Assembly: GCF_009914755.1 (NCBI RefSeq)
Contig: NC_060925.1
Length of the DNA stretch: 64,000 nucleotides
Source of the DNA: the human T2T-CHM13v2.0 reference genome, Homo sapiens
Reading direction: 5' to 3' (one strand)
The position numbers and the translations under genes were made by a program. Positions within the stretch are counted from its first letter, which is position 1, and the number at the start of each line of letters is the position of its first letter. Under the pieces are notes generated by a model. The model saw nothing but the letters and a program-made list of their open reading frames with translations. It was not told the origin of the DNA and searched no databases. Shown here piece by piece: positions 1 to 20,802 of the stretch.

Positions 1-560
1 CAAGCTTTTTAAATTTACAGAAACTTGCTTTCTTGCCCAGCATATGGTTTATCTTGATAAAAATTTATGTGTGGTTGAAAATAATATAAATTTTTTGGAG
101 GGATGAAATGTTCCACAAATGTCAATTAAATCAAGTTGGCTGACAGTGTTGTTCAGGTCTTCTATATACTTGGTGACTTTCTGTCAATTTCTTCTATCAA
201 TTGTCAAAAAGCAAATGTTGAGGTTTCCAACTACAACTGTGTTTGCTTACTGCTTCATTTCTGTCAGTTTTTCCTCTGTGTATTTTGAAGTTCTGTTATT
301 TGCCACATACACATTTAGAATTGTGATGTCTTTTTGATTAATTGCTCCCTATACTATTATGTGAAGCCTCTTTTTTATTCCTGGTTATATTCTTTATTTA
401 AAATCTATTTGTCTGGTGCTAATATAGCCACTCTAGCTTTCTTAGAAGTGTCTGCATGATATGTCTTCTTCCATCTTGTATTTTTTACCCTATCTGTATC
501 TTAAAGTGTATTTCTTATAGATAACATACAGTTGACTCTTGCTTTCCAATCAACCTATAG
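1..560 (-). mobile_element. Old L1M ORF2 fragment
   Basis: T-rich antisense L1 endonuclease-region-like sequence (e.g. aatatagccactctagctttc). Confidence 0.6.
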
Positions 561-747
561 ATGACCAATACCAAATTAATCTGTGTTACTAAAAATCAAA
601 AATTGTGTCTCCCTAGTCTCATTTGGGGTCGATACTATAATTCATCATAACTCAAATATATCAATGCCCAATATGTATATGAGGTAAAGACAATGACTCA
701 TCATTAATAATGGCTAATAAACAGAGATATTTCTAACTAACACTTTC

Positions 748-1225
748 TTTTTTTTTTTTTTTTAAATTTATTTTTTTATTGATAATTCTTGGGTGTTTCT
801 CACAGAGGGGGATTTGGCAGGGTCATGGGACAATAGTGGAGGGAAGGTCAGCAGATAAACAAGTGAACAAAGGTCTCTGGTTTTCCTAGGCAGAGGACCC
901 TGCGGCCTTCCGCAGTGTTTGTGTCCCTGATTACTTGAGATTAGGGATTGGTGATGACTCTTAACGAGCATGCTGCCTTCAAGCATCTGTTTAACAAAGC
1001 ACATCTTGCACCGCCCTTAATCCATTTAACCCTGAGTGGACACAGCACATGTTTCAGAGAGCACAGGGTTGGGGGTAAGGTTATAGATTAACAGGATCCC
1101 AAGGCAGAAGAATTTTTCTTAGTGCAGAACAAAATGAAAAGTCTCCCATGTCTACTTCTTTCTACACAGACACGGCAACCATCCGATTTCTCAATCTTTT
1201 CCCCACCTTTCCCCCCTTTCTATTC
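748..1225 (-). mobile_element. 5'-truncated SVA (SINE-R portion plus poly(A) tail), young hominid type
   Basis: Poly-T 748-763, then tttattgataattcttgggtgtttctcacagagggggatttggcagggtc...catctgtttaacaaagcacatcttgcaccgccc, the classic SVA 3' end; TSD ctaactaacactttc at 733-747 and 1266-1280. Confidence 0.93.
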
Positions 1226-1226
1226 A

Positions 1227-1269
1227 CTGGTTTCTCTTCAGACCGAATAAATCTTTCGCCTTTTACTAA
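1227..1269 (+). pseudogene. U5 snRNA 5' fragment (approx. nt 6-48, including loop I GCCUUUUAC)
   Basis: ctggtttctcttcagaccgaataaatctttcgccttttactaa matches the U5 snRNA 5' half (CTGGTTTCTCTTCAGATCGCATAAATCTTTCGCCTTTTACTAA) with two mismatches. Confidence 0.88.
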
Positions 1270-1343
1270 CTAACACTTTCAATTATTTAAAACAAAAGGC
1301 AAGCAAAGTTCACAAAACTAAACTTGTTCAAAACATAGTTTCC

Positions 1344-1503
1344 ATATCATTAGGAGATATACCTAATGCTAAATGACGAGTTAATGGGTGCAGCACACCT
1401 GCATGGCCCATGTATATATATGTAACTAACCTGCACATTGTGCACATGTACCCTAAAACTTAAAGTATAATAGTAATAAAATAAAAATTAAAAAAAAAAC
1501 AAC
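1344..1503 (+). mobile_element. Very short 5'-truncated L1PA 3' end
   Basis: taggagatatacctaatgctaaatgacgagttaatgggtgcagcac...cctaaaacttaaagtataat plus A tail; TSD aacatagtttcc at 1332-1343 and 1504-1515. Confidence 0.9.
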
Positions 1504-2139
1504 AACATAGTTTCCTTTATGACTCCCAGGATCTCAGGCCAGCTTAATCCATTTGACATACTGAATTAACACCTTAAGTGAGTCATTGCATTTTATAAAT
1601 CAATTGGACATCTAGCCTAACATGATTAAAGTTAATCTCATTGGTAATGTTGACTTTTAAAATTCTGATTATTGCCCTACTCCCCTGTTTCTCTGAGCTA
1701 TTTTAAAACTGTTTTATCTATCAATTGCTCTGCTGTATTTTGATGGTTAATGAAACAGAATTTAATACACTCAAGCCACGTCATCTAGGTCCGACCAACC
1801 ATGGTACCATCTCATGGGGAAAATGGCCTTAAACTGAGCTCATTTTGATACTTCAGTGAGAAAACCTGACTATCCTGGGGTTCATGATTCTTTATAACAA
1901 ATAGTCATTCCTAATGCAAATGTTATGTACCAAAAGTTTGCTTCATCTTCCCATAGTAGTGGTGTTAAAAATGGTGGCTAGTTTCCAAGGCTAGATCACA
2001 TGAACCTACCTAATGGAAGATAAGCCCCAAAAAGGAAAGTGTCATAAAAAGAAGTATTGTAATTTCGATATTAGTACTTAAATATATTGAGAAAGATAAA
2101 ATTTCATTTTTAAATGTTGTCTATTCATCTTAAACATCA

Positions 2140-15288: not shown

Positions 15289-20802
<5,514 letters not shown>

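What the first reader, a model, noticed from the sequence alone, without database searches (positions are those of the whole stretch)
733..1280. SVA / inverted U5 snRNA chimera inside one TSD: apparent twin priming in trans
Seen: a 15-bp TSD (ctaactaacactttc, 733-747 and 1266-1280) encloses a minus-strand SVA 3' end (748-1225) and a plus-strand U5 snRNA 5' fragment (1227-1269). The target reads TT|GAAA on the element strand, an L1 endonuclease-type site. The last 4 nt of the U5 match (CTAA) overlap the start of the right TSD. Known: L1-made chimeric retrogenes such as U6/L1 are normally co-oriented, and twin priming normally inverts part of the same RNA. Inference: the second-strand 3' end (...GTTAG-3') paired with CUAA just 3' of U5 loop I and primed cDNA synthesis on a second RNA, and the two cDNAs were then joined. 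This would be a spliceosomal RNA captured in antisense during SVA retrotransposition.
Basis: partly seen in the sequence, partly recalled or inferred. Interest (0 to 1): 0.85.

Follow-up and report, generated by a model that had tools for sequence, protein, structure and literature searches.

The report
Known-type inverted U5/SVA retrotransposition chimera
A young SVA retrotransposon fragment and a back-to-front piece of U5 spliceosomal RNA were pasted into human chromosome 1 in one event, and this kind of event, with this mechanism, was already described in 2015.

Summary
An exact 15-nt duplication (733-747 and 1266-1280) encloses three things. They are a T16 tail (748-763), a minus-strand 5'-truncated SVA 3' end (to 1225) and a plus-strand U5 snRNA 5' piece (1222-1269, U5 nt 1-48).

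First, U5 was copied to its first nucleotide. It belongs to a variant lineage whose 5' end begins ATTCACTGG. ATTC (1222-1225) is shared with the SVA end, which explains base 1226. Second, CTAA (1266-1269) is shared by U5 and the duplication.

This is not new. Doucet et al. [quoted passage not shown] Those copies are truncated in the same loop, show target microhomology, and were explained by the same model. Two 2025 preprints add more cases.

I examined 124 U5-like loci in this genome. Four further clear inverted U5/L1 chimeras and one probable one share this architecture. Only this locus involves SVA, so it is probably the published SVA case. I could not read their coordinate table to confirm that.

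Verdict: already known, low interest.

The parts
733..747 (.). Left copy of the 15-nt target-site duplication. Its 3' end (747|748) is the primer from which the SVA poly(A) was copied.
748..763 (-). T16, the poly(A) tail of the minus-strand SVA copy.
764..1225 (-). 5'-truncated SVA 3' part (SINE-R region), antisense on the + strand.
   Evidence: 99% over 766-1225 to all 39 other listed copies. Match ends at 1225 in all 39 other listed copies. Eleven of 11 fetched copies read differently beyond 1225. Composite SVA layout in one related copy.
1222..1225 (.). ATTC, a 4-nt microhomology shared by the SVA end and nt 1-4 of the U5 variant. This is the cDNA-cDNA joint.
1222..1269 (+). U5 snRNA nt 1-48, 3'-truncated at the 3' edge of loop I. 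It belongs to the variant lineage with 5' ATTCACTGG and CGAAT.
1266..1269 (.). CTAA, a 4-nt microhomology between U5 nt 45-48 and the start of the TSD. This is the inferred priming site.
1266..1280 (.). Right copy of the TSD. The first-strand nick lies at 1280|1281 on the + strand (..CTTTC/AATT), which reads TT|GAAA on the SVA strand.

Best explanation
This is one LINE-1-mediated insertion that used two RNA templates.

1. The L1 endonuclease nicked the + strand at ..CTTTC/AATT (1280|1281).
2. That 3' end primed reverse transcription of an SVA RNA from its poly(A) tail. This gave T16 and 462 nt of antisense SVA.
3. The opposite strand was cut 15 nt away. Its 3' end (...GTTAG) paired with CUAA (nt 45-48) at the 3' edge of U5 loop I.
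4. That end primed a second cDNA, which ran to U5 nt 1.
5. The two cDNAs were joined at a 4-nt microhomology (ATTC), and fill-in produced the 15-nt duplication.

Shown here: the parts, their orientations, both microhomologies, the site asymmetry, and the recurrence elsewhere. Inferred: the order of events, the enzyme doing the second priming, and that it was one event.

This is the twin-priming chimera class published by Doucet et al. 2015, probably their U5/SVA case.
For: - One exact 15-nt TSD encloses both parts, and no second TSD exists.
- The parts lie head-to-head. The U5 3' end abuts the TSD with a 4-nt overlap, and the U5 5' end abuts the SVA truncation point with a 4-nt overlap.
- The A-rich endonuclease-type site appears only in the SVA orientation: TT|GAAA there against TT|CTAA in the U5 orientation.
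- In the two searches that spanned the junction, only the window itself matched across it (40 of 1319 and 40 of 55 candidates scored).
- I examined 124 U5-like loci. Four others have the same layout, namely TSD of 15-20 nt, T-rich run, antisense L1 3' end, sense U5 ending at nt 40-47, then TSD overlapping the U5 end by 3-5 nt. One further 7-copy paralog family has a weaker TSD (12 of 15).
- The inserted segments at those loci match a + strand RT-bearing LINE in the window in reverse orientation, 3' end next to the TSD.
- In all four clear cases the A-rich site is seen only in the L1 orientation.
- The U5 end point shifts with the target sequence (nt 40, 46, 46, 47, 48), as priming by annealing predicts.
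- Loop I is also the usual end of simple U5 retrocopies. Of 124 loci, 101 end at nt 35-56. Of those, 70 have a repeat abutting nt 1, against 3 of 101 in a control stretch.
- Published model and cases: PMC4476161 (section 6 read), and passages in two 2025 preprints.
Against: - No orthologous or haplotype empty site could be examined, so a single event is inferred from structure only.
- The U5-side cut (..GTTAG/AAAT) is not wholly unlike an L1 endonuclease site, so which strand was nicked first is not settled.
- U5 differs from its nearest variant copies by one base (C at 1243). The Rfam score (31 bits) is under the family's 40-bit cut-off because only 51 of 117 positions are present.
- I could not read Doucet's Table S1 or Fig. 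1B, so identity with their SVA case is unproven.
Confidence: 0.85

Rival explanations
1. A preformed partial U5 cDNA, or U5 fragment, was captured by end-joining at the 5' end of an ordinary truncated SVA insertion. The target 3' end did not prime on U5.
For: Joints with 4-nt microhomology are also typical of microhomology-mediated end joining. The structure alone cannot show which polymerase made the U5 cDNA.
Against: Across the five clear loci the U5 end point moves (nt 40-48) and each time coincides with bases shared with that locus's own TSD. That is expected for priming by the target end. It is not expected for a ready-made fragment with a fixed end. Orientation is always U5 3' end toward the TSD.
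Confidence: 0.08
2. Two separate insertions took place. A simple 3'-truncated U5 retrocopy with this TSD came first. An SVA later landed exactly between the left TSD copy and U5 nt 1. The reverse order is the other form of this rival.
For: Simple loop-truncated U5 retrocopies flanked by TSDs are common: 70 of 101 loop-truncated copies.
Against: The SVA has no TSD of its own. The sequence left of its T run does not recur after 1225. Its T16 starts directly at the end of the shared TSD. The same coincidence would have to have happened at four or more other loci.
Confidence: 0.04
3. The U5-antisense stretch was part of the source transcript, by 5' transduction or splicing from a locus where an SVA lies next to an antisense U5 copy.
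For: SVA transcripts are known to carry flanking sequence (recalled, not tested here).
Against: Only the window itself spans the joint in the two genome searches (only 40 candidates scored in each). None of the other 123 U5-like loci adjoins SVA. The U5 stretch ends exactly at its nt 1 and at a target microhomology.
Confidence: 0.02
4. Template switching of the reverse transcriptase from SVA RNA to U5 RNA, as in U6/L1 chimeras.
For: Such switching to U5 exists. C3:40514055 has U5 nt 1-83 followed by co-oriented L1 sequence, matching a position-83 case in PMC4476161.
Against: Switching gives co-oriented parts. Here they are inverted.
Confidence: 0.01

Closest known systems
Inverted U5/L1 and U5/SVA chimeras formed by twin priming (Doucet, Droc, Siol, Audoux, Gilbert 2015, Mol Biol Evol 32:1815; PMC4476161; section 6 and passages read)
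   Same: One TSD around both parts. Opposite orientation. U5 3'-truncated in loop I (their positions 36, 48, 43, 46; here 48). Microhomology to the target. L1 endonuclease site only in the retroelement orientation. Same proposed mechanism.
   Different: Nothing in kind. I could not confirm that this locus is their SVA case, because the coordinates are in an unreadable PDF and figure. Added here: the U5 copy reaches nt 1 of a variant lineage and joins the SVA through a 4-nt microhomology.
[quoted passage not shown]
   Same: The 3' end of the second cut strand primes reverse transcription, and the two cDNAs are joined by microhomology.
   Different: There both primers use the same L1 RNA. Here the second template is a different RNA.
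Simple 3'-truncated ('tailless') U5 retropseudogenes
   Same: Priming inside U5 loop I through a few shared bases. Of 124 loci in this genome, 101 end at nt 35-56.
   Different: There the first nick primes on U5 and no second RNA is involved. The TSD abuts U5 nt 1.
U6/L1-type template-switch chimeras (Buzdin 2002/2003 and Garcia-Perez 2007, as cited in PMC4476161)
   Same: An snRNA copy and a retroelement inside one TSD, made by the L1 reverse transcriptase.
   Different: Those are co-oriented, with the snRNA usually full length at the 5' end.
Somatic antisense U5/L1HS insertion in human brain (bioRxiv 10.1101/2025.10.07.680917, passage read) and the comparative catalogue of Law and Burns (bioRxiv 10.1101/2025.02.02.635956, passages read)
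   Same: 3'-truncated U5 antisense to the retroelement. Twin priming is invoked. In the catalogue, 80% of U5/L1 chimeras are antisense.
   Different: Partner is L1, not SVA.

Membership tests
Twin-primed inverted snRNA/retroelement chimera (Doucet 2015) | A single TSD encloses both the snRNA piece and the retroelement | tested here: met
   Exact 15-nt repeat at 733-747 and 1266-1280, and no second TSD.
Twin-primed inverted snRNA/retroelement chimera (Doucet 2015) | Opposite transcriptional orientation, 5' ends facing each other | tested here: met
   SVA is on the minus strand with its T16 at the left. U5 is on the plus strand.
Twin-primed inverted snRNA/retroelement chimera (Doucet 2015) | snRNA 3'-truncated in a single-stranded loop | tested here: met
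   U5 ends at nt 48. Loop I is model positions 36-46 in the Rfam structure line.
Twin-primed inverted snRNA/retroelement chimera (Doucet 2015) | Bases shared between the snRNA truncation point and the target site | tested here: met
   CTAA at 1266-1269 belongs to both.
Twin-primed inverted snRNA/retroelement chimera (Doucet 2015) | L1 endonuclease-type site in the retroelement orientation only | tested here: met
   TT|GAAA in the SVA orientation against TT|CTAA in the U5 orientation. The consensus itself is taken from PMC4476161.
Twin-primed inverted snRNA/retroelement chimera (Doucet 2015) | Single event: empty orthologous site with one TSD copy and neither part | not testable with these tools
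   No primate or pangenome assemblies are on hand.
U5 spliceosomal RNA (Rfam RF00020) | Score at or above the gathering cut-off (40 bits) | tested here: not met
   31 bits, E=6e-4, positions 1-51 of 117 only. It is a fragment, not a gene.
U5 spliceosomal RNA (Rfam RF00020) | Sequence identity to bona fide U5 genes | tested here: met
   95% over 43 nt to both chr15 U5 loci, which are the best Rfam hits at 113 bits. 98% over 45 nt to a variant copy.
SVA retrotransposon | High-copy element whose full copies show hexamer array, VNTR, SINE-R part and poly(A) | tested here: met
   2188 candidate copies, with all 39 other listed copies at 99%. A related copy has a 37-nt VNTR and a GAGAGG array. The family definition is recalled.
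Template-switch U/L1 chimera | snRNA and retroelement co-oriented | tested here: not met
   Inverted.

The most novel reading that the evidence does not exclude
The locus may be an uncatalogued example. More interestingly, the U5 RNAs captured this way may come from a particular germline-expressed variant lineage (5' ATTCACTGG with CGAAT).

That lineage has five retrocopies among the 124 loci, and two of them are inverted chimeras. No matching full-length gene is present in this assembly. This would hint that a specific U5 pool, perhaps one not assembled into snRNPs, is what the L1 machinery meets at integration sites.
Probability: 0.1. Interest if true: 0.3.

Novelty: already known. Interest (0 to 1): 0.12.

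Why it matters
It is a clean textbook example showing that the L1 machinery can copy a second, unrelated RNA from the other side of the staggered break, and that U5 loop I is a favoured landing site. It adds no new principle. Its value is as a well-resolved case, with both joints explained to the base, and as a check that the published class is reproducible in the T2T assembly.

Tried and rejected
- Rfam scan of 500-1600 found no U5. This was rejected as evidence of absence, because a half-RNA is only scored as truncated at the ends of a stretch. The narrow scan found it.
- Doucet's supplementary Table 2 is a species-comparison matrix. A search of the readable supplement for SVA, twin, chr1 or the TSD found nothing. 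Table S1 is in a PDF that cannot be read here, and Fig. 1B is not held. The main text holds no coordinates.
- For five other U5 copies lacking an adjacent TSD, I searched 7 kb upstream and found no convincing distant TSD. They are C1:178931284, C12:97442322, C1:231613843, C2:9716056 and C20:55036160. They remain unclassified.
- The last 13 pattern hits could only be fetched with 200-nt upstream flanks. Four are paralogs of the C20 chimera, one reaches the U5 3' end (nt 115), one ends at nt 81, and the rest look like simple retrocopies by eye. No distant-TSD search was possible for them.
- I did not assign an SVA subfamily, because no reference set is on hand and I built no consensus.

Full report
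**What is there**

The window lies at chr1:219,108,001-219,172,000 of T2T-CHM13 (hub note; confirmed as G000:C1). The 15-mer ctaactaacactttc occurs exactly at 733-747 and 1266-1280. It is the top direct repeat of window 500-1600, with spacing 533. Between the two copies lie three things:
- sixteen T (748-763);
- 462 nt that are the reverse complement of the 3' part of a high-copy element (764-1225);
- 48 nt of U5 snRNA on the plus strand (1222-1269).

**The SVA part**

Window 766-1225 matches all 39 other listed genomic copies at 99% over its full 460 nt. Only 40 of 2188 candidates were scored. A query spanning the joint (1150-1300) matched all 39 other listed copies at 100%, but only over 1150-1225. 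Only the window itself matched across the joint; 40 of 1319 candidates were scored. In 11 of 11 fetched copies the element continues CACAAA.. after the base equivalent to 1225, whereas the window reads ACTGG...

One of these copies shows, beyond the shared part, a 37-nt-period tandem array and a GAGAGG hexamer array. That is the composite SVA layout seen from the antisense strand. The family definition is from recall. The 99% identity to many copies indicates a young insertion. I did not assign a subfamily.

**The U5 part**

A 1.1-kb Rfam scan found no U5. A scan of 1216-1272, which lets Infernal score a 3'-truncated match, gave RF00020 at 31 bits, E=6e-4, model positions 1-51 of 117, window 1222-1272 on the + strand. 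This is below the 40-bit cut-off, as expected for less than half of the RNA.

A whole-genome BLAST with 1222-1290 gave:
- 98% over 45 nt to a full-length U5 variant copy at C1:209,612,886-209,612,930 (E=7.6e-13);
- 96% over 48 nt to C10:6,506,553;
- 95% over 43 nt to both chr15 U5 genes, which are the best Rfam hits in the genome at about 113 bits.

In U5A numbering the match ends at nt 48.

The first nine bases, ATTCACTGG (1222-1230), are identical to the 5' end of four other U5 retrocopies. Those four also share CGAAT or its CpG-decayed forms. ATTC (1222-1225) is common to the SVA end and to U5 nt 1-4.

**Geometry**

On the SVA (minus) strand the empty site reads AATT|GAAAG.., a TT|GAAA variant of the L1 endonuclease site. 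On the plus strand the nick is ..CTTTC/AATT (1280|1281). The left TSD copy followed directly by T16 is that primer plus cDNA of the SVA poly(A).

The second cut, 15 nt away on the minus strand, leaves ...GTTAG-3'. Its last four bases pair with U5 C45-U46-A47-A48. The minus strand then continues with the complement of U5 A44 and runs back to nt 1. By the Rfam structure line, loop I is positions 36-46, so the primer sits on the last two loop bases and the first two of the stem's 3' strand. In the U5 orientation the site reads TT|CTAA, which is not A-rich.

**Is it one event?**

There is no second TSD. The sequence left of the T run does not recur after 1225, and the sequence left of U5 nt 1 does not recur after 1269. 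A template switch would give co-oriented parts. A transcribed source would predict other loci with the same joint, and none was found (with the caveat on scored candidates). The empty-site test in other primates or haplotypes could not be run.

**Recurrence in this genome**

A 29-base degenerate pattern for U5 nt 7-35, with up to 2 mismatches, hit 122 places, and 0 in the reversed control. I saw all 122, plus two 3-mismatch extras, which makes 124 loci.

| Class | Count |
|---|---|
| Reach U5 nt 100 or beyond | 15 of 124 |
| Truncated | 109 of 124 |
| End at nt 35-56 | 101 of 124 |
| Of those 101, direct repeat (score 9 or more) abutting nt 1 | 70 |
| Same test on a control stretch 100-150 nt upstream | 3 of 101 |

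So priming inside loop I is the normal way U5 retrocopies arise.

Four further loci have the window's architecture, with L1 in place of SVA:

| Locus | TSD (nt) | Antisense L1 (nt) | U5 nt |
|---|---|---|---|
| C8:56,817,254 | 17 | 90 | 5-46 |
| C1:103,314,491 | 18 | 803 | 5-47 |
| C6:22,501,306 | 20 | 399 | 9-40 |
| C9:92,637,435 | 15 | 3967 | 6-46, or 1-46 by the ATTCACTGG 5' end |

In each, the TSD overlaps the U5 end by 3-5 bases. A T-rich run follows the left TSD. The right TSD is followed by a site that is A-rich only in the L1 orientation.

A fifth case has an imperfect TSD (12 of 15) and about 2.5 kb of L1. It is present in seven paralogous copies: C20 twice, C21, C22 twice, C14 and C15.

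The intervening segments all align in reverse orientation to a long + strand element of the window (about 16.9-20.8 kb), with their TSD-proximal end at that element's 3' end. That element carries an RVT_1 remnant on the + strand, at 28.3 bits against Pfam's cut-off of 29.6, E=1.7e-6. The name L1 is recalled.

None of the other 123 loci adjoins SVA. One locus, C3:40,514,055, is the co-oriented type, with U5 nt 1-83 followed by sense L1.

**Literature**

Doucet et al. 2015 (PMC4476161; section 6 read in full, other passages by search) screened the human genome. They report seven U5 copies associated with retroelements. [quoted passage not shown] They are 3'-truncated at positions 36, 48, 43 and 46, all in the same loop. 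They show complementarity to the insertion site, and the endonuclease consensus appears only in the L1 orientation. The authors propose twin priming on U5 (their Fig. 1A, steps c' and d').

A 2025 preprint reports a validated somatic antisense U5/L1HS insertion in brain and cites the same model (10.1101/2025.10.07.680917, passage read). Law and Burns state that all U5 in U5/L1 chimeras are 3'-truncated and 80% are antisense (10.1101/2025.02.02.635956, passages read). Kojima 2010 (PMC2912911, passages read) describes twin priming and notes 3'-truncated ncRNA retrocopies.

Coordinates of Doucet's cases are in a PDF supplement and a figure that I could not read. Because this is the only SVA-linked U5 among the 124 loci, it is probably their SVA case, but this is not shown.

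**Verdict**

The phenomenon, mechanism included, is already in print. Interest is low.

Noticed in passing
window 1222-1269; G000 C9:1908663, C6:5791849, C10:6506559, C9:92637435; gene-like copy C1:209612819-209612931 (-): Five U5 retrocopies share a 5' end ATTCACTGG plus CGAAT. No full-length U5 locus among the 124 examined has this exact form. The nearest is a full-length copy 9.5 Mb away on the same chromosome. It reads ATTACACTGG, and its upstream flank resembles that of the chr15 U5 genes.
   Followed up: partly
124 U5-like loci of G000: Position 3 of U5 varies among the 124 loci: ATA in 42, ATG in 14, ATT in 10. I did not test whether this reflects source-gene variants or copying errors near the cap.
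   Followed up: no
G000 C20:30376559, C20:31092539, C21:2588814, C22:4327731, C22:12267197, C14:9515951, C15:14908558: One old U5 (nt 6-41)/antisense-L1 chimera is present in seven near-identical copies. It was evidently spread by segmental duplication.
   Followed up: partly
G000 C3:40514055 (-): U5 nt 1-83 is followed directly by co-oriented L1 sequence. This is the template-switch type, and it matches the position-83 case mentioned in PMC4476161.
   Followed up: partly
window 1344-1507 (+): A short L1 3'-end fragment on the plus strand begins about 60 nt downstream of the right TSD. It is a separate, older element.
   Followed up: no
window about 16880-20787 (+): A long LINE-1-like element sits on the plus strand, with a reverse-transcriptase remnant at 18040-18495.
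   Followed up: partly
G000 C11:12880423 and C3:112067948: U5 copies end at nt 43 and nt 36 and are followed at once by a long T run and a sequence I recall as antisense Alu. This looks like later Alu insertions into the T-rich U5 loop.
   Followed up: no
G000 C12:125032138 (-): U5 nt 1-42 is followed directly by a stretch I recall as the 3' part of an Alu in the same orientation. It may be a U5/Alu template-switch chimera. No TSD was established.
   Followed up: no
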